Positions 2,155 through 23,094 of a DNA stretch of 32,000 bases are shown in pieces. The DNA is from Candidatus Saccharimonadota bacterium. GTDB taxonomy: Bacteria > Patescibacteriota > Gracilibacteria > BD1-5 > UBA2023. Each line of letters opens with the position of its first letter. Position 1 is the stretch's first letter. Under the pieces are notes generated by a model. It worked only from the letters and a program-made list of their open reading frames with translations, did no database searches and was not told the origin of the DNA. The position numbers and the translations under genes are program-made. The stretch covers positions 224,473 through 256,472 of the forward strand of contig BAAFHK010000003.1 in the NCBI GenBank assembly GCA_042852035.1. The letters are read 5' to 3'.

Positions 2155-2232
2155 GGCACCATGGCAGAGTGGTCAATTGCAAGGGCCTGCAAAGCTCTAA
2201 AGTCATCGGTTCAAATCCGATTGGTGCCTCCA
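2155..2232 (+). tRNA. tRNA-Cys (anticodon GCA), CCA encoded
   Basis: Acceptor GGCACCA/TGGTGCC, anticodon stem AGGGC/GCTCT with loop CTGCAAA, T arm ATCGG-TTCAAAT-CCGAT, discriminator T, CCA. Confidence 0.7.
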
Positions 2233-2382
2233 TACCAACATTTTGGTCAATGAAATTTCTATAATTTTCTCCTACCATAGAAACCTATTAGGTAAAGCAA
2301 AGTTAAGAAATGGAAAATGACATAAGAAATAAGATGAATTGTAAAAACAGAGGAATAAACAAAAAATCTCCAACCTTTTGAT

Positions 2383-2401
2383 AGGGGGGAGATTTTTTTG
2401 A
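2383..2401. repeat. att-like core copy A (AGGGGGGAGATTTTTTTGA), putative attL of element A
   Basis: 19 of 19 nt identical to 12212-12230. The first 14 nt are identical to 16600-16613. The left flank AAAAAATCTCC can pair with GGAGATTTTTT. Confidence 0.55.
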
Positions 2402-4278: not shown

Positions 4279-6270
4279 ATGGCTCTAAATCAACAAGAAA
4301 AAGAATTTCTATTGCAACTTATTAATGAATGAAAAGATATACCAGAAGATTTCAAATATAAACTTTTTCCTACTCTACAAAAGGAGTATGAGTTAAGTTA
4401 TGCAGGTAAGATGAGAAAAGAAGATCTTTTTGCTAATGAAGATGGTGTTTTTCCTGTTCCACTTCAAGTAGAAAAAACTTTTAATTGAAATGAATATAAA
4501 TGATTTGAAGATGGATGGAAAAATATGATCGTGTTTTGAGATAATTTACAATTCTTAAAAACAATTTATGAGAATAAAGATGATACCATTAAAGATAAGA
4601 TTAAAGGAAAAGTGCAATTAATATATATTGACCCACCATTTGCAACTACTGATGAATTCCAAAATAAAGAATGAGCTAAGGCTTATAATGATAAAAAAAT
4701 AGGGTCTGAATTTATTGAATTTCTTAGAAGAAGACTACTGATTGCAAGAGAAATACTTAGTGATAAGGGGGTAATATATATTCATCTGGATTGGAAAATG
4801 TCTCAATATATCAAAATAGTTTTAGATGAAATATTTTGAAAAAATAATTTTAGAAATGAAATTGCTTGGTGTTATAGTTGACCTTGAAAAAGCAGTAAAT
4901 CTTTTATAAGAAAACATGATACAATTTTATTTTATGCAAAAAATTGGAAAGAAAGCACTTTTAATATACAAAGAATAGAGCATAAATCATGAATTCATAA
5001 TAGAGGAGCATATCTATGAAAGGAAAATGAAGATGCATGAGAACTTGTTGAAAAACTTGAAGAAGAATGAAAGAGATTAGAAGATTGGTGGACTGATATA
5101 TATACTGCAGACAGAAAAAGAAATGAACTAATCTGATACCCTACACAGAAACCAGAAGCACTATTAGAGAGAATAATTATGGCAAGTTCTAATGAGTGAG
5201 ACATAGTTATGGATTTTTTTGGAGGCTCATGAACTACAATGGCTGTTGCAGAGAAATTATGAAGAAAATGGATTAGTTGTGATTTATGAAAACTAGCCTA
5301 TTTTACAGAACAAAAAAGAATACTTACTATTCAAGATAGTAAATCCCTATTAGATGAAAAGAAAAACTATTGAAAAAAAGCAAGGAGTTTTATGACCTGC
5401 ACTCTATGAATGTATAACTTGAAGGATACTCTTGATTTAGAATGGAGTAAGTATAAAGAATTTGTAGGAACACTTTTTGATATAGATATTAAAACTACTA
5501 CTATTTGATGAGTTGAATTTGATGGGAAAAAGTGATCTGCTCCTGTAAAAATGTGGGACTATAATAAGCATAAGGATGCAAATGTTGATGAAACATATAT
5601 TAATACACTTCATCAGTCTATTAAGGCAAAAACAAGTAGAGTTTATATTGTTGCCCCTGCAAATAATATAGGTTTTATTAGTGATTATTTTGAAATAGAT
5701 GGAACAAGATACTATTTCTTAAAAATACCTTATCAGGTTATAAAAGAACTTCATAAAAAATCATTTCATAAAATTAGACAACCACAAAGTAAGAAGAATG
5801 TAAATGATCTTGAAGAAGCAATAGGCTTTCACTTTATCAAGAAACCAGAAGTAAAATCAAAAATAGTTGTTTCTAATGATGAAATATGTGTAGAAATTTC
5901 AGAGTTTAGAAGTCAGTATTATAAAGATGAAGAATGAAAAATATTAGAAAATTTTGAAACTCTATCTGCTGTTTTTATAGATGCTAATTTTAATGGAGAT
6001 CAGTTTATAATGACAGATGTAAAATTTGCTGATGATTTATTGTCAAAGAAGAAAAAAGGTAAGAAGGTAGATGAAGATGAAGAGATTGATGCAGAATTAG
6101 ATGAAGATGAAGAAGGGGTAAGTAATGAAGAGATTAGAGCAGAATTAAAAGAAACAGCAAATAAAGGATTAAAAATAATACTTCCAAGAAAAAAAGTAGG
6201 AGATAAAGTAATGCTTATCTATACAGATATTTATGGGAATGATTTTACAGAAATACTAACAGTCAATTAA
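4279..6270 (+). CDS. mod: Type III restriction-modification DNA methyltransferase (Mod, beta-class amino-methyltransferase)
   Basis: 663-aa code-25 ORF. Motif IV IYIDPPF comes before motif I DFFGGS-G-TT. Also I-G-YPTQKPEALLERII and F-G-DNLQFLK, with the G residues encoded by TGA. Acidic low-complexity C-terminal tail. The next gene starts 1 nt after the stop. Confidence 0.85.
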
Positions 6271-6271
6271 T

Positions 6272-8872
6272 ATGCAAGATATACATATTTTTAGAAATCA
6301 AGACCTAGTCTTAAAAGTTAATCCTACTTATGATCCTACAAAATTAAGATTAAAAGAATGGGATAGTTTTTTAGATAAACTTTGTTGAGATAGAGATTAT
6401 CAGAAAGAAGCAATAAAGCAGGTGATTATCTTTATGGTGTGAGGAAAATATAAAAAAATAGAGGATTTAGCAGAGGAGAATTATAAAAATAATCCTGAAC
6501 TACAAATAAAATATTCATCTCTTGAAGATTATTTACATAAATTACAAATTCAGGGAAAGTTATTTGCTAATATTGATCTTGCCACCTGAACTGGAAAATC
6601 TTATGTAATGTATGGTATAGCACAAATAATGTTGGGATTATGAGTTGTAGACAGAGTATTGCTACTTTGTCCCTCTTTGACTATTGAAGCAGGGTTAAAA
6701 GAAAAATTTGAAAGTTTAAGTTGAAACCAGCAACTAAAAGATGCTATACCTGAAAACTCCATAATAAAAAATCCAAGAATTATTGATGCAAACCAAACCA
6801 TTAAAAGCGGAGATATATGTATAGAAAACATACATGCAGTATATGAAAAAACAGGATCTTCTATACAAGATAGTCTAAAATGAACTGGCAGTAATGTATT
6901 AGTTCTTAATGATGAATCACACCATATTTTTAATAAATCTTCTGATAAAGATGTTAAAAAATGGAAGGAGTTTTTAACTAATGATGATTTTTGATTTCAG
7001 TATATAGTTTGATTTACAGGAACAGCATATATTGATAATAACTATTTCAATGATGTTATATATAGATTTTCATTAAGAGAAGCAATAGAAAATAAGTTTG
7101 TGAAAAGTATTGAGTATGTAGCAAAAGATGATAGTATTTGAAAATGAGAAAAATTTCAAAAGATCCATCAAAACCATATTGATAATATAGATAGATACCC
7201 AAAGATTAAACCTCTTACTATTCTGATTACAGCAGATATTGAAAAAGCAGAAGAATTAAAAGATGATTTAGTTGAGTTCTTGATGCAAAAAGAGAATAAA
7301 AGTAAAGAACAGATAGAAGAAAAGGTTTTAATTATCACTTCTCATAAAGATCATAAAAGTAATTTACTAAAACTAAAAACAGTTGATAGCAAAGAAAATA
7401 AAACTGAATGGATTATATCAGTTTCTATGTTAAGTGAAGGTTGGGATGTAAAAAATGTTTTTCAAATTGTTCCTTGGGAAGATAGGGCATTTAATTCAAA
7501 ACTACTTATATCACAAGTTTTATGAAGAGGTTTAAGAGTGCCACCAGAATATGAATTACCACAACCAAAAGTGATAGTATTTAATCATGATGCTTGGAGT
7601 AGAAATATCATAGAACTTGTAAATGAAGTGTTGGAGATTGAAAAAAGAGTGGTAAGTGAGGTGCTTGATAGTTGAGACAGAAGTAAATATAATTTTGAAG
7701 TATTTAATCTAGATTATTCAAAAGAAGAAGTGGAAGTTGAATTAGAAACAAAAGAAAGTGTGATGAATTTTAGTAGAATATTTAATGAATGAATTAAATT
7801 GGAAGCACAGGTTGAGGAAATAGAAAAATGAACTGTATTTGAGAGTTTAGGTTGAACTCAATCCCAGAGAGAAAAAAATTACTTGATTGAATATGCAACA
7901 ACTTCTGTTGATGATATAGTAGATAAAATCTATTCTGAATTTGAAATGAGGGATTGGGAATGAAAAGTGCTACAACTTAATCAAGAACAATATACTCAAA
8001 ATAATCTACCTCCTAGAACAGTAATTAAGGAAATTATTATAAAATCAATGCAAAAACTCTGAATTAAGGGGGAAAGATTGATAGAAAAAAATAAAAATCA
8101 TATCCTTTCAGGATTTTGAACTTTATTAAGAAAAAAGAATAAAACAGTTATTACAAAACTTAAAGTCAATGATCCTATACTAATAAAAACCATAGAAGTA
8201 GATAGAGAAAGTTTAGGAATTTGAAATTTTAGAAAAGATTGCACTGTATTTCTGACAACAAACTATTTACAGGAAGTAAATGAAGAACAAGGTGCTATTC
8301 TTTCTGAATTAAGTGAAGATGAAAGCCTCCCTAGAAGTGCAATCAAAGAGCAGAATGAGTATTTATTTAAAACACCCCTTAATGTTATCTTAACAAAATG
8401 AGAACCTGAAAGAAAATTTATTGAAGGTTTATGTAAGCAAGATGTTGTTGAAAAAATTAATTGTTGGATTAAATCGAGAGATAGAGGCTTTTATGGTATA
8501 GAGTATAGTTTGAGATATTGAGATAAATGAAGTAATACAAGGAGATATACAAATAAAAAATTTAACCCTGATTTCTTTATTCAAATACAAAAAGAAGATA
8601 TAAAATATACTCTTGTTATTGAAACAAAGATGGATTGAGATGATAGTGAAGAGAACAAAGCAAAATATAAATATGCATTAGAACATTTTAATAGATTAAA
8701 TGAAGAACTAGAACAGAGAGGAATAAATGAAAAATACATTTTTCATTTTCTTAGCCCCCAATGATATTCAACATTTTTTGAATATTTAAAAGATGGAAGA
8801 ATATTGGAAGGACAAGAAAAGTATAGGTGTGCTCTTGAAAATAGCCTAGAAAATAATGAAGAGGAGCTATAA
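6272..8872 (+). CDS. res: Type III restriction enzyme Res subunit (SF2 helicase plus C-terminal PD-(D/E)xK nuclease)
   Basis: 866-aa code-25 ORF. Walker A DLAT-G-TGKS, DEAH-type box NDESHH, MLSEGWDV, QVL-G-RGLR. C-terminal NPDFFI ... LVIETK nuclease motif. Translationally coupled to mod. Confidence 0.85.
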
Positions 8873-9619
8873 TAAGGAAATTGCATACTTCCCTGTAAAG
8901 TTTTCTTTTAGGATTTCTTCATATTTTTCTTTTTTATAATCCCAACAAGACACAATCAAAATAAGGTTCTTTTCTCTAAACAGAGGAAAGAACTTTTTAT
9001 TATTCTTTCTAGTATTCATATCTTCATATCCTAGTACTTTCTGATGAAACTGTTTGTATGAGTTCATATTTTCTAATTCAAGACAATAGGCTGTATTTCA
9101 GATACTTAATAGTAAATCTGGTATCATAACAAAATCTAGATATTCATATTTAGTTTCAGGATTTTTTAACTCTGTTTGAAGTATTTTTTGGATTGTTTTT
9201 GATCCTGTAAAATATTCTGCTTTCAATACAAAATCCTTATTTTTATTTCTAATCTTTCATAGGAAATAAACAAAGAGATCTCATAATAGTAGTTGATGAT
9301 TATATAGGGTATAACTGGTATTATAAATTGATGGTTCATATTTTATTCAGGTCTCATAATAAATCCTGTTTAGGACTATTTCAGTAGTATTTAGCATATA
9401 AATACTATACTGGCTTATACTTTTATATTCTTGTTTCAGTTCTTTTATAAATCAATGCTTTTTCAGGAGGAGTAGCCTTATATTAAAGGTTTTATGTTGG
9501 GTTTCTGGACTAACAATATTTTTTAGATTTCTAGAACTACAAAATCATAATTCATTTAAAGTATGAAATATTAACAAGTCCCTAGGTGTTAAAACTATAT
9601 TTTCTCTGGTTTTATTCAT
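8867..9619 (-). CDS. Replication-relaxation (Replic_Relax)-like protein: N-terminal wHTH plus PD...ELE nuclease-like motif
   Basis: 250-aa code-25 ORF. N-terminus LTPRDLLIFHTLNELGFCSSRNL resembles the family as I recall it. IPDLLL...CLELEN motif. Its ATG overlaps the stop of the upstream ATPase gene. Confidence 0.45.
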
Positions 9620-11066
9620 ACTTTTCTCAATTAGATTTTAAAAGTTTCTGTATATTTTGATCTCAAATATTTAAAGACTGTGTTAATATGCTTAAAGTTC
9701 AGTGGTTAATAGTGTCAAAAACAGAATAGAACTCTCATCTTTTGAGATTAACAATATCTTTTTCACTTATTGCAAACTTTTGCTCTAATCAAGAATTGGT
9801 AATAGGAACAAATAACTCTGCCTGTTCTGGTGGTAATGCAAAAATAAGTGAATAACTCAAATTATTTAGTAAATCCTGTAATTCTCTACTGATACTCTGG
9901 AATATAAACAACATATTTATTTTTTTCTTCCTGTGTTCATTTAGTATTTTCTCTAAAATATCTAACATATGATTTTTACTACCTTGGAGTTCGAGAAAAC
10001 TTTGAAATTCATCACAAGTATAATAATGGCTTCATAAGTTGGGATTATTATGATTTTTACCTGCTCCAATGTGATATAAAATGTTTGTAAGGAAAGATAT
10101 TACTACTCTTCTTTCTTGGGTATTGAATACTGAAAAATCAAATAGATATACTTCTGTTTGTTTCTTTTCTCAACTCATATAGTGTTCTATGTCCAATGTA
10201 AGTTCTTTATAACTTTTTCAATATCCAAAAGTATCTCCTAATCAAAAACTAAAATCTTTCAATTTTGTTAAACTGGTAATATGAGACTGTTTATCTACTT
10301 GAAGATCTTTAAGAAAAGTTTTTAACTCTTGGTCTACTCCATTTGCAAGTTGGAGTATGTCAGAATGAGTAGAAGAAAATAGTTTTTTTCTATCTTCATC
10401 AAGATAAGTAGGAAGTTTCTGGCATCTACTGGTATAATCTAACAAATCATATAAATCCCTATAAGATAATAAAACATTGTCAGGATCTCTATGGTATCTT
10501 TCTATATTGATAACTATAAAACTTCTTATAAGTCCCTCTAATACTTTTGTGTTTGAGGGTCAGAAAGCAGAGTAGTTAAATACTCATTTCAAAGAGGAGA
10601 TATTATAGTTTACCCATTTATTTAAGTCTGTAATATCTTCTACAAGAGACAAAGCAAATAGTGGATTAAAGAAAAATGTTTTATCCATATAAAACCCTCT
10701 ATATTTTTTATTATTTTCAATAGTTTCATTGGAAAATCTAAAAATATCTCAATATCTGCTTAATTTTGGATTATCTATTAAGTATTCTCATAAAAGATTT
10801 AACAAAGGATTTATAAATGAGTTATGGGGATCAATACAAACAAAAGTATCTCCATACTTTGTATTATCTGGTTGAGACTGTTGTAAAATTGAAGATTTTA
10901 TAGTAGAAAATAGGGTAGATACTAAACTGTATGTTTTGCCACTTCAAGATTTTCAGAATATTCATCAATGACCGGATTTTAAAATATTGTAGTTGAGTGA
11001 TAAAAGTGCTTTATCTTCTAGTATATGGGACTTCTGGACTGTCCCTATGGGTATAATGTGAGACAT
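9612..11066 (-). CDS. Type IV coupling protein-like ATPase (VirD4/TraG/TraD family), no obvious N-terminal TM segment
   Basis: 484-aa code-25 ORF. Walker A GKSGSGKT. Walker B and TraG-D_C-like region YYTCDEFQSFLE ... HRKKKINMLFIFQS. Confidence 0.6.
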
Positions 11067-11142
11067 AGTATAGGCTGGTTAAGTGATATGTTATATTGTA
11101 TTAATAAAAATTAAGATTTTTGATTAAATTACATTCAAAAAA

Positions 11143-12003
11143 TCATGAACTAGGTAAAATTATGGCTTTATCCTGAATAGTTCCTGAAATATGGGAAAGT
11201 GGTAAAAATAGCCCTTGTGATAATAGTGCTTCCGGTTGAAGTAGTCTTTTATACTGTGGTATATAATCTAAAAATGTTTTATATTCAGTTATTGAGTAGG
11301 AATTATACAGAGATGCATATAGTCCAAGGTTCTTATACAAAATACTTTTAATATCCCTATATTGCAGGTTATGTGATATATTAAATTGAAATAGAAACAT
11401 GTTCTGGCTTTCAGTAAAAGAACTTATAAAACTCTCCTGCTCCTTTTCATTCATATTTTTACTTTTCTGGGTATATAAATAATCCTTTACTAATGATGAA
11501 TAAGATCCCTTTGAGAATGAAAAGAGTATTTTAATAACTTCATTTTCATTAATGAAGGGCAATATTTCCTGTATGAATGAACTTTTTATAGATGAGGAGG
11601 TTGTAAAGTCTCAGGCTCATAAAGCACCAAGTTTCTTAATTTGTAATACAGAGTGGTTATTAAGTCAGATTTTATAAATATGCTTGTATGATTGTCTTAA
11701 TATGAAATCCCTTTTTATGTCTATTGAAAAACTGATCTTTCAGTTGTAGAGTTTGATAAAAAACTGCATTATATAATTAATACCTTCAAGACTATTAGAA
11801 AATATATATTCATCTATAAAAACTCTATTTTTAGCCTGATAGCAATGTGTTTCCATTCAAAACCATAGATGAGGGAGGTAGAAAGCATTTAAATCATTCT
11901 TGATGGAATTTATAAGGTTTTCTCAAAAGTTGGTTCAAGGATTGATTTTTAAATAGAAAAGTTGATGCTCTGGAAAATATGGAATATTTGAAATTTGAAA
12001 CAT
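11143..12003 (-). CDS. Hypothetical protein (286 aa), first gene of the minus-strand mobilisation operon
   Basis: Code-25 ORF from ATG 12003 to TGA-free stop at 11143. No family recognised. Confidence 0.45.
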
Positions 12004-12088
12004 GGAGATCAAAATTAATAAAACAAATAATCATTATATTAATTTTTAGAAACTATGGATTATGTCATTGTATATTCTTCATTACCTA

Positions 12089-12216
12089 CCCCTGTAATTT
12101 TTAGACTTTCTTTTATTTAAAAGGAAAAGAGCCTAATAGGTCATAACTTAAAACTTATGACCTATTAGGCTCTAACCACACCTTATTTATAGTGGAAAGT
12201 CTAAAAATTACAGGGG
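12089..12216. repeat. Nested perfect palindromes (22-bp outer arms, 19-bp inner hairpin)
   Basis: Outer arms CCCCTGTAATTTTTAGACTTTC (12089-12110) and GAAAGTCTAAAAATTACAGGGG (12195-12216). Inner arms AGAGCCTAATAGGTCATAA (12128-12146) and TTATGACCTATTAGGCTCT (12155-12173). Confidence 0.85.
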
Positions 12217-12230
12217 GGAGATTTTTTTGA
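12212..12230. repeat. att-like core copy B (AGGGGGGAGATTTTTTTGA), internal attP-like junction
   Basis: Identical to copy A over 19 nt. Its left flank AAGTCTAAAAATTACA resembles the left flank of copy C, AACTCTAAAAAAATAGA. Confidence 0.55.
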
Positions 12231-12276
12231 CTAAAGGAAGAAAAAGATATACTTGATATTAATTAATGTAATTATT

Positions 12277-13311
12277 ATGACTAGATTAATAGATGGGGTA
12301 AGGGAGGCAGGATTGGAACAAGGAACAGATGGAAGAGTAAGCAAAGAAAAAGTAAATGAGATGTTAGAGTTTTTTAGTAAAGCATTTTGAGAAGATGCTA
12401 TATTATCTGTATGAGGATTTGATAAGAAATTAGTTGATGCTGTTAAAGAAAATGACAATATCATTAAAAGATTATTACAATCAGAATTAGAAAGAAATTG
12501 TAGATATGAAATGAATATAAGCACTTCTAATGTTAAAGAAGTTATTGAGTGGATTGATATTATCAATAACAACCAAGAAAAAAATGGTTGAATTATCTGA
12601 AAACAATTTAGATTTACTGCTAGTATTATTGAGGCATTACTTGCATTTTTAAAACTCTATCAATCTGCAAATATTGTTAATCAAAATGAAAATGGAAGAG
12701 AAAAAGAAATAATTCTGGTTTTGATTGTTAAGACTTTAAGGTATGCAATAGGTTCTGGAAAGAATGGTTTTACAGGAATAAAGTCTGATTTATTTTCAAA
12801 GTTTGAAGAAGTATTGCATAGGATTTTTGATGATGCTGATATTGAAACAGATGAGAAAACACAACTTATTTTTCAGTGAAGTGCAGGATCTTATGGAAAT
12901 GCACCAAAAAATAATGTATGGATAGAAGATTTTATTAGATCTGTTTCAGGAGATGGCTGAAATGTATTAGTTCATTTTTTAAAAAAATCACAACTCAATA
13001 AAACAGAGTTATTATTATATACTGATAAAAATATTGTAGAAGTTATCATTGAATATTGAAATAACTTTATATTTATTCTTACAAATAGTAGAGAATGGAA
13101 AAAGGAGGCAGTTTTACTTTATAAAACTACTGAAAATATCTTGCAGGATCAAGTTAATAGATGATGAATTGAAAAAATTATTAATCTATTTCTTCAATGA
13201 GGTTTACCAGTTGAAAAGAATGATAATCTAAAAGTTATTAGTAGAAATGATATTTTAGATAGAAAGTTTATTGCAGAAGAAGACTTTGGTAAAATTATTC
13301 AAATTTCTTAA
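12277..13311 (+). CDS. Hypothetical protein (344 aa)
   Basis: Code-25 ORF from ATG 12277 to TAA 13309-13311, with about 12 in-frame TGA codons. No family recognised. Confidence 0.5.
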
Positions 13312-13350
13312 TTTCCTTTTATTAAGGTGGGTATGGGTATTTTTTAAATT

Positions 13351-14904
13351 ATGGACTTACAAAAAAAGATTACAGACACTCTGGATTTACAAATAAATGC
13401 TGATGATATTTTATATTCAAATATTGATAAGTTAGGCTTTTATTTTAAGTCATCAGAACTATTCTGATATTTTAAATCAAAAGATCCATTTCCAGATAAA
13501 GAAGAAGTTATTACTATCTGAGATACAAAGTATAATTTTCTAGTTTATCTTTCAGATAAAGACTTGAATGGATATGATAAAAAACTATGACTAAAAATAG
13601 AATATAGAGGGGAATATTATGAGGTTATAGATATTCTATTTAACATAAAAGAAAGTAGATATTTATGTGTTTTTCATGGAAAGTTGTGGAGGTTTTCAAC
13701 TCTAAAAGAGTTTGGATTTTCAAATCAAATATTAATTGAATTTATATCAAAAAACTTTACAGAGATACAATTAAGAGAAATTCATATTTGTTTAGATGTA
13801 GAAGAGAAAGAAGATTATCTAACTAGGATTAATGAATATATTAAAAACTATGTTCCAAAGGTATTCAATAAAGATACCTACAATTTTAGTAGTTGAAATT
13901 TATGAAGACAAATTGAAATAGGTTTGCCAGACAGAAAGAATAATAAAGAGTTTTTTTATAAAATTTATAATAAGACTTTACAGGCTAGGAAGATGTGAAT
14001 TGATAAAATATATGTTGATTATTGTTTATCTACTGAAAAGAATGTGTTTAGATATGAAATAGAGTTTAGACAAAATATAGCAAAAACCATTAAATTAGAA
14101 GACTTAAAGTTAATCTGACCTATACTAGAAAATAAGAAACAGATGCATGCAGGGAAGTATATTTTGAATGAATGGATTTGTAGAACTCTTATTTCATATT
14201 TTGTAGACAAACAAAAATTTGATTTTGTGTTTTGACAACTCAATATTGAGAATGTGAAACTTAAAAGGTCTGAAAATAGAGCCACAGGTTCAGTTGGCAA
14301 AAGAATAAGTGATTTAAACCTGATAGGACAGCTAAAATCTTTAAGAACCCAAGCAAAGAATATAGAAAGCACTACTTGAATACCCTTGAAGAACAACTTT
14401 GATAAGTTAGATGAAATTATAGGAGAAAGTCAGGATTACAGATATTATATCACTATTTATAGAGGAATTTTCAGGACAATAAAAAACCATTATGAAGAAA
14501 ATGAGGTAAAGGATTTTGATGAACTTTCTGAATTGATAAAGGGGGCTACTACCTATGCACTCAATTTTCTAAAAACTGATTATAACAACTTCTTTAAGAT
14601 TATAAGATGATGAATTAATAGGAATGCTGATAGTGTAATAGAGTTTCTTGCAGATAATGAAAACTCTTTAAGTGAATTGATTTATTTTTATTACTTTTGA
14701 AGATTAAGAGAATGAATATTGTTTGATTTCCTAGATGTTCTAAAAGAATGAAATATGCCATTATTTCAAAAATATTTTGAAGATGATAAGAAGTTAAGAG
14801 AGAGTATTGCAAATAAACAAAAATCAATAAGTATGCTGAATGATGATAGTAATTTATCCTTTGATGATTACTCAAAGTCAGTTTTTAATATATTTTATAA
14901 ATAA
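13351..14904 (+). CDS. Putative replication initiator (Rep_trans / phage CRI-like)
   Basis: 517-aa code-25 ORF. LREIHICLDV and FRYEIEFR resemble the RxDxAxD and RxExE(F)R strands of rolling-circle or phage gene II-type initiators as I recall them. Confidence 0.4.
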
Positions 14905-14915
14905 TCTCATTTTCT

Positions 14916-16814
14916 ATGGAACAATCAAAGAAAAAAAGAGTAGGAATATACATTAGAGTTTCTACATTAGACCAAGCAAAAAAAGGAACTTCTCTTGAAG
15001 ATCAAGAGCAGAGTTTAAAATTATATATACAAGCAAACTCAATAGATGGTTGGGAACTTGCTGAAAATGGAGTTTACAGAGATGATGGAATTAGTGGTTT
15101 TAAGGGTATAGCAGATAGACCTGAATTTGATAGATTAATGAATGATGTGAATGACAAAAGATTAGATATTGTTTTGGTATATAGAATAGATAGACTAGCA
15201 AGAAATACAGAATTACTGCTGAATACTGTTAAGAAATTTAAAGTAAAGTGAGTGCAGTTTGTGAGTATGAGTGATAGAATTGATACAGATACAGCAAGTG
15301 GGAAGATGCTACTTGCTATACTAGGTGCTATGGCTGAAATGGAAAGGAACTTGATTTATGAAAGGACATATGCTTGAAAGATTAGAAAATTAAGTATGGG
15401 TTATGCTTCCTGATGATGATTTGATTTACCACTTGGTTATAAAAAATGAGAAGATGGGAAGATAATGATTGATGAGCCATATAAAGAGTTAATCCAAGAG
15501 ATTTTTGATCTTTGTACTGGGGAGAAGCACTTTACACCAAAAGAAATTGCTGCTGAATTATCATCAAGGGAAGAAACTACTTGGTGGGATAAAAAAATGG
15601 CAAAACTTAAAAAGAAACAAGTTAAAACAGGTGTCTGGAATGCAGATACAGTAAGAAAGATACTTCTCAATCCTATTTATAAATGAGTATACTATTTTTG
15701 AAAAACAAGAAAAGTGCTTGCAGATAATGAAGAAGATGAAATTACTGTAAAAGTTCCAGAAGAAGAATGGCTACCAGTTCCTATGCCTTGTGGTTGAATT
15801 ATTACAGAGAAACAATGGGAAGATGCTAAATATCAAATTCAAAAGATTAATAAAATTAATAGAGGAAGATGAAGAAGCCATATCTTTACAGGTCTAATTA
15901 AGTGTGGGTTTGACTGAATGAGTTATATTTGTTATAGGTCAAAACAGAAGAAAGTTGAATACTTTTATTATAGATGTGGTGGAACAAATGCGTCTAAAAA
16001 TGAGAATAAAAGAAAAGATACTGATGTAGGAAATATTGATATGCCTTTGTGTAATAATCTACAAGTTCCTGAATTAGAACTTTATAACTACTGTATTGAT
16101 ATTATTACAAGGTTCATAGAAGAACCAGAAGCACTATATAAACAAAAAATAGGGAATGATGAGGAGTTTAAGAAACAAAAAAAGATCCTTGAAACAAAAA
16201 TAGAGGAAGATAAGTTAAAAATTAAAGAACTTGAAGTTACTATAACATCATTGTATTATCAGAAATCAAAAGATAAAATAAATGCTGATAACATACAAAA
16301 TGTGCTTGATACATACACACAAGATAAAGAAGCAGCATTGAAAAGACTTGAAAATAATGAAAAAGATTTGCTAAATTCAGAAAATCAGTTAAATTCTGGC
16401 AAGCAAATGAAACAGTTTGCTGAGACTTACAAAGATAAACTTGCAAATCTTACAGAGGAACAAGGAACAGAACTTATTAGGTTGTTAGTTGATAGGATTG
16501 AAGTTAAAGGAACGTTAATTACAGTATTCTTTAAGTTCAAACCACACCCAGAGAGTTTTACACATAGTCAAACTCTAAAAAAAAACTCTAAAAAAATAGA
16601 GGGGGGAGATTTTACAACAAGTTCTACACCAAACAAGCAGTCTCTCCAACATATATGCAGCCGTAGTTCAGTTGGATTAGAACGCCTCCCTGCGAAGGAG
16701 GAGGTCACAGGTTCGAGCCCTGCTGGTTGCACCATTTCAACTCATAGAAGACTCTTCAGTACCATTTTTTGGCTCTGGGGAGCTTTTTTTAGGTTCGTAC
16801 TCATCTATACTTAA
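14916..16814 (+). CDS. Large serine recombinase LSR-A. The integrated-state ORF has no stop before the att core and runs through tRNA-Arg
   Basis: VGIYIRVSTLDQ (catalytic Ser), YRIDRLARN, recombinase domain, Zn ribbon CGFD-G-...YYRCGG, long coiled coil. The first code-25 stop is TAA at 16812-16814. The native end is probably just after core C (about 16613). Confidence 0.85.
16600..16613. repeat. att-like core copy C (AGGGGGGAGATTTT), putative attR of element A, inside the LSR-A ORF
   Basis: 14-nt identity with copies A and B, 44 nt upstream of tRNA-Arg. Confidence 0.55.
16657..16734 (+). tRNA. tRNA-Arg (anticodon GCG as folded by hand), CCA encoded
   Basis: Acceptor GCAGCCG/TGGTTGC, D arm GTTC..GAAC, anticodon stem CCTCC/GGAGG with loop CTGCGAA, T loop TTCGAGC, discriminator A, CCA. 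Confidence 0.7.
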
Positions 16815-18356
16815 TCAAACCTTGGAAGGTTGGAACCGATAGTTAATTGCTATTACTGGTCTTAAGTTCTCACGTGTAACCACTATATCTCTCACAAGAA
16901 TATTGATAATTTGCTTTTTTTGAGAAAAGGAGAGATTCTCAATTTTTGTCTCGATTGTTTTAGAAAATTCCTCAAGAGAGATTTTCATCTCTTCAGCTTG
17001 TACTATCCCATCAAGCTTCTCATCGAGATCCTGTATCTGTTTTTCACAAGCTTCTCTATCCTGAGATATTTTTGCAAGGACTTTTTCATATTTCTCTTCG
17101 GAGAGCATACCTTTCCTGTAATCTAATTCAGTTGATAGATCAGCATCTTCGAGCCTTTCAAGTTCTATCTGACGACGTTCACGCTCTTTAGTATATGTGT
17201 CGTAATCTCTACTGTCGACAGATTGCTTACGGAAGATATCATATAATTCCTGAGGTCTTTTAATAAAAGTCTCAATATGTTCCCATACCAATTCCTCTAG
17301 ACTCAATCAAGGAATATCAAAGTTTTTGTAATACTTTCCTCGGATAGTTCGAGCTGGACGACGGTAACTTATTCCACCTTTTGTTCGACTCACTCATACA
17401 AATTTCCGACCAGTTTCAAGATCGGTTACTTTTCTGGAGAGCAAATATTCTACGTTTCCACCTCATCTGACAGGATCCTCCTCACTCTCTTTGATGAGAT
17501 TTTTTGCAAGCTCGAAGGTGAGATCGTCTATAATCCTTGGCACCTCGATCGGTACTTGTGTCTCATATCACTTCTCGTCCTTGCTCTTGTACACAGCTCT
17601 CCCAGTATAAGCACCTCTTTCGAGAATATTTCTAATATCAGTATGATACCAAATTTTAGCTTTATTTTCTCTCGTATTCCCCTTTCCCTTATCGACCTTG
17701 TTTTCTGTAAGGATATTAGCGATTTCTTGATAGGTTTTCCCAGATAAGAATTCTGAGAAAATTCTCTTCACCCAAATTGCTTCTTCTGGAATAACAATTA
17801 ATGATCTTCATTCACGCTTATCACTTTTATCCTTAATATAACCAAATGGAGTCGTACTTAGTACATAATTCCCTAACCTTGCAGAGGCAAGCTTTCATTC
17901 TTTCGTTCTTGTCTTTATAGTTTCCCTCTCAAATTCTGCTAAAGCTCAAAATATCTGAAATGTAAGTTTACCGATGGGACCAGTAAAATCTATATTCTCT
18001 TTCAGAGAGAAAAATCAAACCTTATTTTTTTGTAAGATTTCAAATGTTGATAGAAGATGGGAGAGGTTCCGAGATAGTCTATCTATTTTCCACACAGCAA
18101 CCATATCAAACTTCCCAAGCATAGCGTCTTCTATCATTTTTTTATACTGAGGTCTATTCAGATCAGCACCAGTCTTTCCTAGGTCCTGATACACCCATTC
18201 TGGATTATGTATCCAGTTATTGTGTTTTCCTCGAAAAACAATCATTTCCTGTAATCACTGAAGTTGCATTTCTGGTCAATAGCCATTCTTTTGTTCTTCA
18301 GTCGATACACGGATATAAAATGCAACTCGATGGGGTTTATCACTAATTGTAAGCAT
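16677..18356 (-). CDS. Large serine recombinase LSR-B. Code-25 reading continues past TGA at 16817-16815 into the antisense of tRNA-Arg
   Basis: VAFYIRVSTEEQ, WKIDRLSRN, G-ALAEFERETI, coiled-coil C-terminus. Internal TGA codons sit at conserved Gly positions. Under code 25 the first stop is TAA at 16679-16677. The homology-like end (…INYRFQPSKV) is at 16818. Confidence 0.8.
16752..16797. repeat. Direct repeat, left copy (putative attL of element B)
   Basis: TGGCTCTGGGGAGCTTTTTTTAGGTTCG (16770-16797) matches 23347-23374 at 27 of 28 nt. The upstream CTCTTCAGT is also shared. Contains a weak GCTC/GAGC hairpin plus a T7 run. Confidence 0.65.
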
Positions 18357-18381
18357 ATAAACATAGTTAATGTATGCTTAC
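18349..18381. promoter_or_regulatory. 9-bp inverted repeat spanning the LSR-B start codon (possible operator)
   Basis: GTAAGCATA (18349-18357) and TATGCTTAC (18373-18381). The ATG is at 18356-18354. Confidence 0.3.
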
Positions 18382-18459
18382 ATAATATTTTTCATTAAGG
18401 AAAAGTAAAGAAAATATCTATCAGAAGATTAATAAAAATAGACTATACCAAGATATAAT

Positions 18460-18805
18460 CTACTTTCCCAAAATGCAATCAAGTATTCTATGGTCAATAA
18501 TATCCGCTTCTAACTTAGATGGACTATCGAAATTAGCAATTACAGTAATAGGCACTCTCCGCTTTCATTGAGGTGGTATTTTTCAGATTATGATTGAATT
18601 ATTTTGCTTTTCCATCTAAGGAGTAACGTTCAGATTATTGTCAAAGTTACCCCCCAGTAACAATAAAATCGTAATCTTTTTTCAGTGGTTGTACAATTTG
18701 TACCACTCAGATATCGTATTTCTCCTGATCTAGATCAGCAAATATATTTTTTGAAATTACATATCTCTGATACAAATACTTATTCAATATAAGTTTGCCA
18801 ATATG
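18460..18805 (-). pseudogene. Possible decayed gene, broken at a G6 run and by an in-frame TAG
   Basis: Minus-strand reading ...KNIFADLDQEKYDIGVVQIVQPLKKDYDFIVTGG stops at the GGGGGG run (18650-18655). A 1-nt shift continues as NFDNNLNVTP, then TAG, then MEKQNNSIIIGKIPPQGKRRVPITVIANFDSPSKLEADIIDHRILDCILGK. Confidence 0.25.
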
Positions 18806-18829
18806 CTAATTATTTATATGATACAGAGG

Positions 18830-19022
18830 CTAAAATGTATCCGTAATCTATAACCTGCGAAAAAGAAAAGGGCAACTTATTGTTGTCCCCCTTTTCACTT
18901 CTTCGGAGGTTGTAAGGATACGTTTTAGCGAACACTGGACACTTAGGTTGCCCTTTTGTTTGCTAAAACGTTCCACCCATTCCCAAAGATACTTTTAGCG
19001 TTATATTTTTATAACGCTTTTT
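18830..19022 (+). promoter_or_regulatory. Structured leader with mutually exclusive helices, ending in a terminator 3 nt before an ATG (attenuator or riboswitch-like)
   Basis: Helix 18830-18842:18916-28 (13 bp). Helix 18921-34:18957-70 (14 bp), which shares CGTTTTAG with the first. GCTAAAA (18962-68) can also pair with TTTTAGC (18993-99). Terminator AGCGTTAT/ATAACGCT (18997-19018) plus a T run. Confidence 0.5.
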
Positions 19023-19024
19023 CT

Positions 19025-19345
19025 ATGGAAAAATCCGATAAATTAGGTTGATATCTCTTCTGGATATTACTTGGTGTTATTCTTATATCACTTAACTGGG
19101 ACCGTATAAAAAGCTTACAATCTGAAACGTGGCAAGGATTTTTTTATCCCAGAGGTTGTCTGTGGTGTCAGAGTGAGTATATCTATAGTCGTCCTTATAA
19201 ATCCCGTGAAGAGTGTCTTGCTTGGTGATCTCAACTCAAAGCACAGAGGAATATTCCAGAAGATAAATTCGAGTGTTGAAAGAATTGTAAGCCACCCAAC
19301 ACAAAGGATTGACTCTATGTATGTGAGAGTACCGTAGATTATTAA
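19025..19345 (+). CDS. Small membrane-anchored Cys-rich protein (106 aa)
   Basis: Code-25 ORF from ATG 19025 to TAA 19343-19345. TM-like YLFWILLGVILISL followed by eight Cys residues. Confidence 0.45.
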
Positions 19346-19360
19346 ATAACCTTATAAGAT

Positions 19361-19666
19361 ATGTTAAATCCATCAGACCCCCACTATATAGAACATAATA
19401 AGAGACTCCGAGAAGCTGAAAAAGCCTGAAATGTCCAATACCTCACAAATCCATCAGAAATAGATATACGAATAGCAGATTGGGAAGACCAATTTCTCAA
19501 GGATTTCCCAGAGTTAAACTTTTTAGATAATCGGGAGGCTATGCTTCTGAAGTTTCGGGAAGTGGCTCAATATGATCCTTTATCATCTCAAGGCAAGGAT
19601 CGATTTATCGAAGAACACTGATTTCTTCCCGAGCAGATTTTCTCTTCAGATATGGAGTCCCAGTAA
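19361..19666 (+). CDS. Hypothetical protein (101 aa under code 25; 86 aa if the TGA at 19619 terminated)
   Basis: ATG 19361. In-frame TGA at 19619-19621, TAA at 19664-19666. The code-25 tail overlaps the convergent gene by 62 nt. Confidence 0.4.
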
Positions 19667-20117
19667 TACTGCCGTATTCTCCAGATTCAAGGACTTTAGC
19701 CTTCTTTTCAATAGATTTTAGTATCTCAAAAGCTCTCTTGGGACTAATATCGAGAATGATATTTTGAGGACCATTATTGATAGTTACTTTATCTTTGTCT
19801 ATACGCCACTCTGGATCTGTATGCTTCAAAAATTGGAGAGAGACTTGTATATCTCCTTCAGCAAGTGCTTTATTGATATTTTGTTTTGCGAGAAGGCGAG
19901 AATAGACTCATTTTGTGTTGCGAATTTCCTCTCGAAACTCTGGATTTTTATCCAGAAAACGGTAAAAGGCAGATACCGAGAAACCGCAAGCAAAAGAGGA
20001 TTCTTCGATTGTATGTCATAGTGAAATATACTCCTTGAATTTCGAGAGATTAGAAGGAGTTATTTTTGAGGGTCTGCCAATTTTATTATGTGTTTTAGTT
20101 GTATAGATCTTGGGCAT
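19605..20117 (-). CDS. Phage terminase small subunit-like HTH protein
   Basis: 170-aa code-25 ORF. The N-terminus GRPSKITPSNLSKFKEYISL-G-HTIEESSFACGFSVSAFYRFLDKNPEFREEI matches the GRPxKYxP...G.T...A...vS..T...W....peF pattern of small terminase or HTH_23-type proteins, from memory. Confidence 0.5.
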
Positions 20118-20140
20118 AGTCAGATTATCTTATTAAAAGT

Positions 20141-21169
20141 CTATGTTACTATTCTAAAATTAAAATTCACAGCATCTATGGAGTAAATAGTGATATCCTC
20201 ACATCTTACCTTATTGTCACGAAACAAAGCTATATTATATCACTGTGGATTCAAAGAACTATCGTATATTAAACCATCATATCATCACAAAACTTTTAAA
20301 AATTCAGCAATATATTGCGTTGGGAGATAATCTAACTCTTTGTCATCTTTTAGATTTGGCTTTGAAAACTCATTACTCATTCTTGAAATGAAGTGAATAT
20401 AAGGATAATAGTCTTCTATTTTTTCCCTCTCTGAAAGACGCATAAAATCAATAGAATCTTTCCTCAGATCAACTAAAATCAAATCCTCTAGTACTATGAA
20501 TTTCCCAGTGCATATTTGATCATAATGGGAGGCTCTAGTTTCATAGAATGTAGTAACAACATCACCTGATAGATATAAATAGGGTATTCCTATTGGGTTA
20601 ATTCTTCAGCCTTTAGAGGATACTTTATTTATAGGAGGCATACCCAAATCTTGGATATTATATAAATTTCAAGATCTACTAATCCTGCTTCTATACAATA
20701 AGTTATCAGCATCAATGGTAGTAGTGTGATAGTTTATTAAAATATATTCTATCTCTTCTAAATCTAACGCATTTGTTATATGGAATCGATTAGTATTTTT
20801 TAATTCATTGGTAAAGTTATCCCATCATTTAGTTAGGTGTATTTTTTGAGATGGAACTAATTTAGCATTGTCAAAAATTGGATATTTATGGGTGATAAAT
20901 ATGTCACTAAGTAATCTATTACTGCCTCATCAGGGATTAAAAATGCTTCAAAATTCTCAAAGTATAGAATCTATAGTTCAGATTGAACTCTCAATATCTT
21001 CAATATGTAGTTTTGAAAGACCCTCAAACATATGACCAAAGTCCACATCGCTAATATCACAAACGTGAACATTATTACTCTCGCAATAATCACACTCACC
21101 CTGTTGATTTAAAGAGCTAATGTACGCTTTAACATATGGACTATTGAAACAATTTTTACAACAAAGCAT
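20141..21169 (-). CDS. RES domain protein with N-terminal Cys-rich (Zn-ribbon-like) domain; predicted NAD-targeting toxin or effector
   Basis: 342-aa code-25 ORF. CCKNCF...CDYCES at the N-terminus. RES signature GGRINPIGIPYLYLSGDVVTTFYETR and C-terminal G-G-YDGLIYDSSLNPQ-G-YNIALF. The start lies 3 nt after the stop of the upstream gene. Confidence 0.75.
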
Positions 21170-21172
21170 ATA

Positions 21173-22126
21173 CTATACTAAACTAACCATTAATTCTATA
21201 TGATTCATAATCGCAAGCTTCTTTATAGAACCAAGTCAAGGGAAGTGACCAGTATTGTATAAATCTATAAATTCTTTAATGCCTTGTGTTTCAATTCCAG
21301 TATTCTTGGACCATTCTACTAATTTTGAGTTTGCCTCATTAAATTTTCAGGCAACATCAGATCTATCTCAATTTGAATCTGAAACAAAATGCCTTACCAT
21401 TACTTTCCCCGAAGTATCTTTATACGAAATATGTATAGCTACTGCAAAAGGCATAAATCCAGCTTCTGAATAGTTATCTCAAATGGTAGCAAAATCTCAA
21501 AATCCGACAAATTGTTCCGTCTTATAAAATAGATGCTCTTCGGTAAAAGCACTTGATTTGTCTTTATAATCAGAGTTCCTATTTTGTGATTCGAAATAAT
21601 CTGCTAGTGAAACCCTGGAAGATTCTATAAACTCTCTATAATAACGACGATTGCTGTTTGTTTTATCGAAATTAATTACGTTATATTTAATTTTTGCAAT
21701 CGAACTAAGATCATCTTGAAGTGACTTAATATTATCAGCATCTAAAACACTATTATGAATTAAGGATAACCCGCTTCAAACAGGTCCAGTTGTCACTAAA
21801 CAGCCTTTAATTTCGCTTGCTTTTAGAAAGTAGTTATCGTTTATGATAAGTCATATTTGAAAATTACTATAATCTCATAGCTCGGTAGTAACTAACTCCA
21901 TTATTTGTTCATACTTATCTTGAGCATCGCCATATTCAGGATTTAGAACAATAGTAAAATTAACGTTACTCTCTTTGAGTTTCCGTAGAGTTATATCAAA
22001 TGTTGTCGAAAACTTAACGGGCTCAATTATTGGTGAAACCTTTTCATTATTCAGGGCTAAAAAAGAGCTCATATCTCTAAGTGCCATTAATTCGAATTGC
22101 TTTCATCTTAGATACGGAAAATACAT
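21173..22126 (-). CDS. T4 Beta-protein / sce7725-like family protein (function unknown)
   Basis: 317-aa code-25 ORF. The N-terminus MYFPYLR-G-KQFELMALRDM and FVGF-G-DFATI-G-DNYS match my recollection of that family. 2-nt gap to the upstream gene. Confidence 0.45.
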
Positions 22127-22128
22127 AT

Positions 22129-23058
22129 TTATGAAACTTTAGTATTTAAATACTGATTCAGCTTTTGAAGCTCTTTGCTGTCTAGCCCTATGTTATAGCA
22201 AGAATACCTTAATGCCTCAGGTGCTGTCTTTAAGTAATTTTGATAACTTACATTCTTTTTGCGTTCTTTTAGCCTTTCGAAAGCTAGTTTCTGAAATTTG
22301 GTTACTTCTATATTCTTAGCAAGATCTAAGCAATAACGGAATTGTTTAGTATTTGGTACATCAACCTTAGTATTGAAATAGTTCTCGATTAAATTCAAAT
22401 ATTCATCTTTTCTCAAGGTTTTAAATATTGTGTCGTGATCAAACCTTGTCATATCCACAATGGCTTCTTGTACAGTCTTGAGAGTATTTCTATTTGTAAA
22501 TTCAATGATTCCTATATTAGTATCCTTATACTCTTCGATGATTTTTGCTAATAACTTTTTACTACTGACTATATAAACTTTATTTGCGAATTTTCTATAG
22601 TCATTTATTTGTTTTTCTAGCTTATCAAGTGTGTCTAATTCTGTCTTTACTTCAAATATCTTTACCTCACCATTGAGTAAGACGAAATCAGCAATTGAGG
22701 ATCATATAGTAAACTCATCAAATACTACAGTATGACTTGTCTTATATTTTGATAATTGACTATGTAAGAGTTTATTCTTATAAAAATACTCATTTCTATA
22801 ATTCCTTAGCAAGTACTCATATAGACTCTCTACAATGTCCTTATATGTAGAACCTTCTTGAATATCAAAATGTTTACTGATTCGATACCTAAACGCCGAA
22901 AAATCACCATCTATAAATTTTTTGATAGACGATGCCGAAAGAAGGGAGGCAATACTGATGAGAGCGTCTTTTTGTAGATCTTGTAACATATTGATTTTCC
23001 TCATTCTAATCGAATTGCTCGATAAAACAACATTTTTACTATACATAAAATTGCACAT
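22129..23058 (-). CDS. PD-(D/E)xK nuclease-fold protein (sce7726-like); start codon uncertain
   Basis: Code-25 ORF. YRNEYFYKNKLL then VVFDEFTI-G-SSIADFVLLNGEVKIFEVKTELD (a D...EVK motif). Candidate starts at 23058, 23046 and further in-frame Met codons downstream. Confidence 0.5.
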
Positions 23059-23094
23059 TCTGTTATATCTTGATTAAAGTAACTATTTTCCTCT

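What the first reader, a model, noticed from the sequence alone, without database searches (positions are those of the whole stretch)
16551..16814. The attachment core lies inside the LSR-A ORF, so integration swaps its C-terminus and deletes its stop codon
In the integrated state the LSR-A frame passes through core C (…KKIEGGDF…). It finds no TAA or TAG for about 67 more codons, translating straight across tRNA-Arg. Joining C-left to the B right arm gives AAA ATA GAG GGG GGA GAT TTT TTT GAC TAA, a clean end …KKIEGGDFFD-stop. Joining to the A right arm gives a 12-codon tail. So the excised form encodes a normal-length recombinase and the integrated form a tailed variant. This could make activity depend on integration state, comparable to myxophage Mx8 intP/attP.
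Basis: partly seen in the sequence, partly recalled or inferred. Interest (0 to 1): 0.75.

Follow-up and report, generated by a model that had tools for sequence, protein, structure and literature searches.

The report
Recombinase gene runs off its element's end

Summary
The sequence facts hold. AGGGGGGAGATTTT occurs three times (2383, 12212, 16600). The LSR-A frame runs through copy C and tRNA-Arg to TAA at 16812-16814. Joining C-left to B-right gives ...GGDFFD-stop.

Five related elements from other samples are colinear with the window up to 16648 (...GT[C/G]TCTCCA) and unrelated after it. The right boundary is therefore 35 bp past copy C. Two of these relatives, on long contigs, run straight through copy B. 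B is thus an internal conserved motif in a ~14-kb element, and the "B-C circle with a clean stop" is not a real product.

The broader idea survives. In all six elements the LSR frame has no TAA or TAG before the boundary. It ends 7, 13, 54 or 63 codons into unrelated flanking DNA, or runs off the contig. The crossover therefore lies inside the ORF.

AlphaFold places the last folded strand at residue ~540. Residues 543-632 are predicted disordered, so the variable tail is probably neutral.

The left junction is unresolved: 2367-2374 or 2235-2241, giving excised tails of 33 or 13 aa. No empty site or circle junction was found.

LSR-B and a third LSR read out of their elements in the same way.

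The parts
14916..16814 (+). LSR-A ORF as it stands in the integrated state (632 aa; NCBI GAB0175332.1). It is element-encoded up to 16648 (577 codons plus 2 nt). The last 54 codons are flanking DNA, including tRNA-Arg.
   Evidence: Pfam Resolvase, Recombinase and marginal Zn_ribbon; exact look-up; translation
16643..16648 (+). TCTCCA, the last bases shared by all six related elements. This is the right end of the element and the probable crossover region.
   Evidence: Alignment A2 is conserved to column 90 and unrelated afterwards. The BLAST matches of L001 and L006 both end at 16648.
16559..16648 (+). Conserved right-terminal block. It includes the putative P arm and overlaps the codons for the disordered LSR tail (residues ~549-578).
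   Evidence: 59 of 90 columns are invariant between two lineages whose LSRs are only ~50% identical; 7 of the 8 codons that differ in the last 48 nt are non-synonymous (my reading of the sequences)
16600..16613 (+). It lies 35 bp inside the element's right end and is not the crossover.
12212..12225 (+). Motif copy B. This internal motif (CAGGGGGGAGATTTTTTTGAC) is conserved in L001, L006/L008 and L007. It sits at the 3' edge of a 128-nt hairpin in the divergent ORF11/ORF12 intergenic region.
12089..12216 (.). Large inverted repeat or hairpin (dG -70 kcal/mol, z -13) in the element's divergent intergenic region. It may be an origin or a regulatory site.
2383..2396 (+). Motif copy A. It shares 19 nt with B and forms the 3' half of the terminator hairpin after ORF4. 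No counterpart was found in the left 2.3 kb of the L008 contig.
2361..2399 (.). Bidirectional terminator-like hairpin AAAAAATCTCC...GGAGATTTTTT (dG -18.4, z -4.6), 7 nt after the ORF4 stop codon.
2367..2374 (+). Left-junction candidate L1. TCTCCAAC is identical to 16643-16650.
2235..2241 (+). Left-junction candidate L2. CCAACAT is identical to 16646-16652 and begins 3 nt after tRNA-Cys.
2155..2232 (+). tRNA-Cys, host DNA on the left flank. It is the last gene of a tRNA Arg-Leu-Cys cluster.
   Evidence: conserved in L010
16657..16734 (+). tRNA-Arg(GCG), host DNA 8 bp to the right of the element end. The LSR-A frame reads through it in sense and the LSR-B frame in antisense.
4279..8872 (+). Cargo of the element: type III-like restriction-modification genes (methyltransferase 4279-6270, ResIII helicase/nuclease 6272-8872).
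   Evidence: Pfam N6_N4_Mtase and ResIII on the homologues in L006; colinearity
8867..14904 (.). Conserved backbone: ORF9, ORF10 (HerA/DUF87-like ATPase) and ORF11 on the minus strand; ORF12 and ORF13 (unknown function, no Pfam hit) on the plus strand, upstream of LSR-A.
16677..18356 (-). LSR-B, the recombinase of a second, adjacent element. Its ORF also reads out through its own att repeat.
16763..16797 (.). Left copy of the att repeat of the LSR-B element. It contains the tRNA-Arg terminator at 16771-16784. The partner copy is at 23340-23374 (91% identical).

Best explanation
LSR-A is the integrase of a ~14.3-kb integrative element that carries defence genes. The element sits between tRNA-Cys and tRNA-Arg(GCG) in a Candidatus Altimarinota (Gracilibacteria, genetic code 25) genome. 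Its left end lies between 2235 and 2374, and its right end is at 16648.

Shown:
- The recombinase gene is the last gene of the element, and its reading frame has no stop codon before the element's end.
- Every insertion therefore appends a different, arbitrary peptide until the first TAA or TAG in the flank. Here that is 54 codons, because the G+C-rich tRNA-Arg happens to lack stops in that frame.

Inferred:
- In a circular form, the tail would be read from the element's left end: 13 or 33 aa, depending on which left junction is real.
- The swapped segment is appended to an already unstructured C-terminal extension that follows the last strand of the zinc-ribbon domain. It is most likely tolerated rather than used as a switch.
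- The three copies of AGGGGGGAGATTTT are element-borne motifs, not recombination cores. Two lie near the ends and one at the internal palindromic intergenic region. Their function is unknown; they may be terminator halves or binding sites.
For: Right boundary:
- Six elements in two sublineages (LSRs ~50% identical) align up to TCTCCA and are unrelated beyond it.

Copy B is internal:
- L006/L008 is one 15.1-kb contig that aligns to window 5135-16648 in a single 11.5-kb match.
- L007 aligns from 8888 to 13802. Both run across copy B.
- The B motif is conserved in all of them.

No in-element stop:
- Tails after the junction are 54, 13, 7 and 63 aa. Two more run to the contig end.

Left side:
- ORF4 to ORF13 have 25-28% G+C, apart from ORF5 (0.30), against 33-39% for flanking host genes.
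- Short identities spanning the junction occur at 2367-2374 and 2235-2241.

Protein:
- In the AlphaFold model, strands 525-531 and 534-539 are the last folded elements. pLDDT is below 50 for residues 543-632.
- Forty-two other LSRs carry 0-222 aa (median ~42) after the same motif.

The open frame across the tRNA is not unusual (16% of shuffles).

Parallel cases:
- LSR-B reads through its own att repeat.
- P0004/L012 reads across an antisense tRNA-Phe.
Against: - No empty site and no circle junction was found. The attB pattern for candidate L1 gave 0 hits in genome contigs and metagenome contigs.
- The left junction is ambiguous. No left end of a relative could be matched to the window's.
- I saw no dyad symmetry between the putative P and P' arms, although serine-integrase attP sites usually show some.
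- The stop-free 35 codons before the junction are conserved in length in both lineages. That could mean selection for read-out rather than neutrality.
- Activity of any form is untested.
Confidence: 0.72

Rival explanations
1. The 14-nt motif AGGGGGGAGATTTT is the att core; A, B and C are attL, a hybrid site and attR of tandem elements. Excision of the B-C segment restores a normal-length recombinase ending ...GGDFFD-stop.
For: - Three exact copies against 0 expected by chance.
- The right arms of A and B share TTTGA, and the left arms of B and C are similar.
- The C-left/B-right join does give a stop two codons after the motif.
Against: - The 35 bp after copy C are present in all six elements. 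They diverge in step with the LSR gene and are followed by six unrelated flanks.
- Copy B and about 85 bp to its left are conserved inside elements that are colinear over 8-11 kb.
- No A-type copy occurs in the left 2.3 kb of the L008 contig.
- In the L002/L003/L007 lineage the C motif has diverged (GGTAGGAGATTTT) while B has not. An att core that must match its partner would not do this.
Confidence: 0.03
2. A state-dependent switch. The boundary is at TCTCCA as in the best explanation, but the lack of an in-element stop is selected because the appended tail, or the fate of the mRNA, changes recombinase level or activity between the circular and integrated states. In this window, RNase P/Z processing of tRNA-Arg out of the LSR-A transcript would leave a non-stop mRNA. 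The recombinase would then be tagged by tmRNA and degraded, silencing it after integration.
For: - All six family members in two lineages lack a stop before the junction.
- LSR-B and P0004 do the same.
- Precedents exist in tyrosine systems: the new 3' end of Mx8 int alters integrase behaviour (PMC6070905). In integration-dependent immunity, integration removes a C-terminal degradation tag (PMC3694055).
- LSR-A reads into the tRNA in the sense direction.
Against: - Tails are unrelated in length and sequence (7 to 63 aa), and two relatives stop within 13 codons of the junction.
- The predicted excised tails (13 or 33 aa) show no recognisable tag.
- The region is predicted disordered, and tail length varies widely among LSRs.
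- In an A+T-rich genome with only two stop codons, a 35-codon open stretch is only mildly improbable (about 0.14 by my estimate from composition).
Confidence: 0.12
3. A fossil element. LSR-A lost its original stop codon by decay, and the element is fixed, so the read-through has no biological meaning.
For: - One relative (L003/L004) carries an in-frame TAA in the catalytic domain.
- No circle or empty site was found.
Against: - The LSR-A ORF is intact over 577 codons with all domains and a confident fold.
- Close relatives (83-93% identity) sit in three different flanks, which implies recent mobility.
- The stop-less architecture is shared by lineages only ~50% identical, so it predates them.
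Confidence: 0.08

Closest known systems
Myxophage Mx8 intP/attP (tyrosine integrase)
   Same: attP lies inside the integrase coding sequence, so integration creates a recombinant gene with a new 3' end (PMC6070905). The window shows the same geometry: the crossover is inside the ORF and the C-terminus is supplied by DNA across the junction.
   Different: Mx8 Int is a tyrosine recombinase with defined attB1/attB2 sites, and the prophage form has experimentally altered properties. Here the enzyme is a large serine recombinase, the flanks differ in every copy, the swapped part is a predicted disordered tail, and no functional consequence has been shown.
Integration-dependent immunity of mycobacteriophages BPs/Brujita
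   Same: attP lies inside an ORF, and integration replaces that protein's C-terminus (PMC3694055).
   Different: There the split gene is the repressor, and what is removed is an ssrA-like degradation tag. Here the split gene is the recombinase itself, and no tag-like tail is seen in either candidate excised form.
Multi-targeting large serine recombinases and serine transposases (Durrant et al. 2022, PMC10083194; TnpX/TndX by my own knowledge)
   Same: Closely related LSRs (83-93% identity) are found next to unrelated flanks, with only a short conserved end sequence. This resembles the 'multi-targeting' behaviour described.
   Different: No DUF4368 domain was detected in LSR-A. Only six junctions are available, so no target motif could be derived. 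LSR-B, by contrast, looks site-specific, always sitting downstream of tRNA-Arg.
Canonical phage serine integrases (phiC31, Bxb1, A118, TP901-1)
   Same: They share the domain order: catalytic domain, recombinase domain, zinc ribbon with a coiled-coil insert. The gene also lies next to the att site.
   Different: To my knowledge, in the textbook systems attP lies in intergenic DNA beside int. Here the crossover falls within the coding frame, and the gene has no stop of its own.

Membership tests
Large serine recombinase (serine integrase) | N-terminal resolvase-type catalytic domain | tested here: met
   PF00239 at 2.9e-38, residues 11-162; best PDB match is the TP901-1 integrase catalytic domain, 9.6e-25
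Large serine recombinase (serine integrase) | Recombinase domain (PF07508) followed by a zinc-ribbon domain | tested here: met
   PF07508 at 1.6e-14. PF13408 scores 24.7 bits, just under its 25.3 cut-off. Cysteines C330, C354 and C379 are nearly invariant in alignment A3.
Large serine recombinase (serine integrase) | Long coiled-coil inserted in the zinc-ribbon domain | tested here: met
   The AlphaFold model has helices 415-452 and 454-508, followed by the return strands 525-539
Large serine recombinase (serine integrase) | Short attP and attB sites with a 2-bp crossover and imperfect dyad symmetry | tested here: inconclusive
   The right boundary is mapped to TCTCCA. The left junction is ambiguous, and I saw no clear dyad symmetry between the candidate arms.
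attP-within-integrase-gene systems (Mx8 IntP type) | Crossover lies inside the integrase ORF, so integration gives a new 3' end | tested here: met
   There is no TAA or TAG before the boundary in six elements, and the tails come from six different flanks
attP-within-integrase-gene systems (Mx8 IntP type) | The prophage-form integrase has altered activity or specificity | not testable with these tools
   This needs biochemistry. The model shows only that the swapped part is disordered.
attP-within-integrase-gene systems (Mx8 IntP type) | Tyrosine recombinase chemistry | tested here: not met
   LSR-A is a serine recombinase
Integration-dependent immunity (BPs/Brujita type) | attP lies inside the repressor gene, and integration removes a C-terminal degradation tag | tested here: not met
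   The interrupted gene is the recombinase. The candidate excised tails ...HFGQGNFYNFLLP and ...ITIKFFCL do not look like ssrA-type tags.
Multi-targeting LSR clade (Durrant et al. 2022) | Close orthologues integrated at several unrelated targets | tested here: met
   The window, L001 and L006 (LSR 93% identical to L001; L006 ~86% at the DNA level) have three unrelated right flanks. L002, L003 and L007 have three more.
Multi-targeting LSR clade (Durrant et al. 2022) | DUF4368 domain, present in most clade members | tested here: not met
   No DUF4368 hit at E <= 0.01
   Homology continues 35 bp past copy C and through copy B

The most novel reading that the evidence does not exclude
Stop-less large serine recombinase genes are a selected design in TGA-recoded candidate-phylum bacteria. 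Because the crossover lies inside the ORF, the recombinase's C-terminus and the 3' end of its mRNA report whether the element is circular or integrated. In this window, the integrated transcript runs into tRNA-Arg. Processing of the tRNA would leave a non-stop mRNA, and tmRNA tagging would destroy the recombinase, locking the island in place. The circular form would end at a normal stop and terminator.
Probability: 0.1. Interest if true: 0.7.

Novelty: new variant of a known kind. Interest (0 to 1): 0.4.

Why it matters
If attP routinely overlaps the 3' end of serine-integrase genes in these recoded, A+T-rich genomes, three things follow.

1. Automated annotation will report inflated, context-dependent recombinase lengths. 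NCBI already lists this one as 632 aa, including a translated tRNA gene.
2. Pipelines that reconstruct attP and attB for genome-engineering LSRs should look inside the ORF.
3. It offers a natural serine-recombinase counterpart to the Mx8 IntP situation, in which the effect of a swapped C-terminus on directionality could be tested.

As it stands, the evidence points to a tolerated by-product rather than a regulatory device.

Tried and rejected
- Empty-site scan for candidate L1 (AAATCTCCAACATATATGCAGCC): 0 hits in genome contigs and in metagenome contigs.
- Right-end pattern in viral contigs: 0 hits.
- The search for related loci with LSR-A in genome contigs found no relative. In the metagenome collection it found only one 39%-identity locus, L005, which I did not pursue.
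- Attempts to recognise a conserved left end (P' arm) in L008, L009 and L007 gave only chance-level matches or shared terminator hairpins.
- Alignment of the tRNA-Cys downstream spacer between the window and L010 was not significant.
- The GDFTTSS peptide shared by ORF11 and the LSR-A tail has no DNA-level similarity, so I take it as chance.
- My first impression of a '100% identical terminal block versus 86% elsewhere' between the window and L001 was overstated. The whole 3' half of the gene is 85-100% identical.
- L014 looked like a possible LSR-to-ORF6 circle junction, but it carries a tyrosine recombinase instead.
- Literature searches found no description of attP inside a serine-integrase ORF. 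This is absence in the held library only.

Full report
**Setting**

The window uses TGA as a sense codon. With only TAA and TAG as stops, ORFs are long; under table 11 they fragment. TGA also falls on the glycines of a Walker A motif (GKSGSGKT), which fits code 25. Exact protein look-ups identify the source as an NCBI MAG, 'HHAS10', of Candidatus Altimarinota in the Patescibacteria group. That record annotates LSR-A as a 632-aa recombinase and LSR-B as a 559-aa one.

**Checking the observation**

LSR-A (14916-16814, +) has Resolvase and Recombinase domains and a marginal zinc-ribbon hit. The 14-mer AGGGGGGAGATTTT occurs exactly three times, at 2383 (A), 12212 (B) and 16600 (C). None is expected by chance.

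The LSR-A frame passes through C as ...KKIEGGDF.... It stays open for 67 codons, the stop included, across tRNA-Arg(GCG) (16657-16734) to TAA at 16812-16814. Joining C-left to B-right gives ...GGDFFD*. So the stated sequence facts are essentially correct.

The open frame across the tRNA is not itself remarkable. About 16% of shuffles of that stretch also lack TAA and TAG.

**Where the element really ends**

A protein search found close and intermediate relatives of LSR-A only in Logan assemblies. I fetched their contigs.

Six elements fall into two sublineages whose recombinases are ~50% identical:
- window, L001 and L006
- L002, L003/L004 and L007

All six align up to ...GT(C/G)TCTCCA and are unrelated from the next base on. 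The BLAST matches of L001 and L006 to the window both stop at exactly 16648.

The 35 bp between copy C and this point are therefore element DNA. They are present in every copy, they diverge in step with the gene, and they stay in frame. The right boundary, and so the crossover region, is TCTCCA at 16643-16648. It is not the 14-mer.

**Copy B is internal**

L006 and L008 are two views of one 15.1-kb contig. It aligns to window 5135-16648 in a single 11.5-kb match at 85.5% identity. Further matches reach back to 3148. The more distant L007 aligns across 8888-13802.

Gene order is the same in all three: a 103-aa ORF, defence cargo, three minus-strand ORFs that include a HerA/DUF87-like ATPase, an intergenic palindrome, two unknown ORFs, then the LSR.

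Copy B (CAGGGGGGAGATTTTTTTGAC) is conserved in all of them. It sits at the edge of a 128-nt hairpin with dG -70 kcal/mol and z -13. The 4.4-kb 'B-C circle' and its clean FFD-stop therefore have no support.

**What survives of the interpretation**

In all six elements the LSR frame has no TAA or TAG before the boundary. It terminates in unrelated flanking DNA:
- 54 aa (window)
- 13 aa (L001)
- 7 aa (L002)
- 63 aa (L003)
- L006 and L007 reach the contig end still open

The crossover thus lies inside the ORF, and the element does not encode the stop codon. This matches the geometry of Mx8 intP/attP, here in a serine recombinase.

The same holds for two further recombinases:
- LSR-B reads through its own att repeat (16763-16797, paired with 23340-23374) and the antisense tRNA-Arg. 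All members of its 90% cluster end the same way.
- P0004 is 30% identical to LSR-A and comes from another TGA-recoded genome. Its ORF runs across an antisense tRNA-Phe at the edge of a defence island.

**The left end**

ORF4 through ORF13 have 25-28% G+C, apart from ORF5 (0.30), against 33-39% for flanking host genes. The tRNA Arg-Leu-Cys cluster ends at 2232. The left end therefore lies between 2233 and about 2400.

Two short identities span the right junction:
- L1: TCTCCAAC at 2367-2374
- L2: CCAACAT at 2235-2241

L1 shares all six terminal bases, but it would split the strong terminator hairpin after ORF4 (2361-2399, dG -18.4) between host and element. L2 leaves that hairpin whole. It would place attB in a ~14-bp spacer between tRNA-Cys and tRNA-Arg.

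I cannot decide between them. Relatives carry different cargo at their left ends, and no common terminal sequence emerged.

The predicted excised tails are 33 aa for L1 (PFDRGEIF...FFCL) and 13 aa for L2 (HFGQGNFYNFLLP).

**Does the tail matter?**

An AlphaFold model built on 46 sequences has mean pLDDT 76.9. It places the last folded elements at strands 525-531 and 534-539. Residues 543-632 score below 50. This low-confidence stretch covers both the 35 element-encoded residues before the junction and the read-through.

In 42 other LSRs, the stretch after the same motif ranges from 0 to 222 aa, with a median of ~42. In the last 48 nt, 7 of the 8 codons that differ between the two lineages are non-synonymous, while many DNA positions are invariant. 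This suggests the region is constrained as a DNA site rather than as a peptide.

Together these results favour a tolerated, arbitrary tail. A regulatory role is not excluded. The most concrete version is that processing of tRNA-Arg from the LSR-A transcript would create a non-stop mRNA. I rate that as a minority possibility.

**The 14-mer**

A and B share 19 nt, so A is not a chance terminator. Yet the left 2.3 kb of the L008 contig has no A-type copy. In the L002 lineage, C has drifted while B has not.

The copies are element-borne motifs of unknown role. Each precedes a T-run, and two close hairpins. Terminator halves or protein-binding sites are the obvious guesses.

**A related host**

L010 and L011 carry the LSR-B element at 99.5% identity beside a diverged tRNA-Arg. 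They have ribF upstream of that tRNA and no LSR-A element. This shows that the LSR-A element is not a fixed neighbour of tRNA-Arg. The locus is rearranged, however, so it is not a true empty site.

**Verdict**

The specific model (core, B junction, clean stop) is wrong. The general claim, that the recombination site lies inside the recombinase ORF and the C-terminus depends on context, is supported and recurs in three LSR lineages of recoded genomes. I found no description of this for serine integrases in the held literature. I class it as a new variant of a known kind, of moderate interest.

Noticed in passing
window 16677-18356 (-), 16763-16797, 23340-23374, 23095-23316: LSR-B also lacks an in-element stop. 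It reads through its att repeat and the antisense tRNA-Arg. In a circular form, its frame would continue in phase into ORF21 (73 aa) at the other end of the element, giving an LSR-B/ORF21 fusion.
   Followed up: partly
L010 3252-3329, 4456-11702, 11623-11700, 12180-12575 versus window 2104-2232, 16655-23378, 29393-29783: In a related genome, the block 'tRNA-Arg plus LSR-B element' is inverted and relocated relative to tRNA-Cys and to the region around window 29.4 kb. ribF lies upstream of tRNA-Arg. The LSR-B element is 99.5% identical while host DNA is 81-93% identical, which suggests recent horizontal spread.
   Followed up: partly
L012 10001-11911, tRNA-Phe 11733-11807 (-): A third LSR (P0004, 30% identical to LSR-A) sits at the edge of a type III RM / OLD / Abi island in another TGA-recoded genome. 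Its ORF runs across an antisense tRNA-Phe. Read-out of LSR ORFs into flanking tRNA genes may be common in these genomes.
   Followed up: partly
window 12089-12216: A 128-nt near-perfect hairpin (dG -70 kcal/mol, z -13) with an inner 46-nt palindrome lies in the divergent ORF11/ORF12 intergenic region. It is conserved in L001, L006 and L007. It may be an origin or an operator. One Logan contig (L001) breaks exactly inside it.
   Followed up: partly
L003 112-2076 and L004: The LSR of this relative carries an in-frame TAA (FLI*IMGAL where relatives have FLISIMGAL) in two samples. It is probably an inactivated, fixed copy.
   Followed up: no
L014 3-803, 866-1177: A homologue of the element's conserved 103-aa ORF6 lies directly downstream of a tyrosine recombinase. 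The backbone modules may pair with either recombinase class.
   Followed up: no
window 29729-29807 (-): ARAGORN calls this 'tRNA-SeC (tca)'. In a genome that reads TGA as glycine, it is presumably the tRNA-Gly(UCA) that defines code 25.
   Followed up: no
window 4279-8872; L007 1691-5521: The cargo slot between ORF6 and ORF9 holds different defence genes in different copies: a type III-like Mod/Res pair here and in L006, and MvaI/BcnI, a methylase and an OLD-family nuclease in L007.
   Followed up: no
window 11554-11637 (-) versus 16604-16625: ORF11 contains the peptide GDFTTSS, which also occurs in the LSR-A tail. The DNA is unrelated, so I take it as chance.
   Followed up: yes
L006 and L007 right ends: Both long Logan contigs stop 21-25 bp after the TCTCCA boundary. 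This might reflect an assembly-graph branch caused by mixed junctions in those samples. I could not test it without reads.
   Followed up: no
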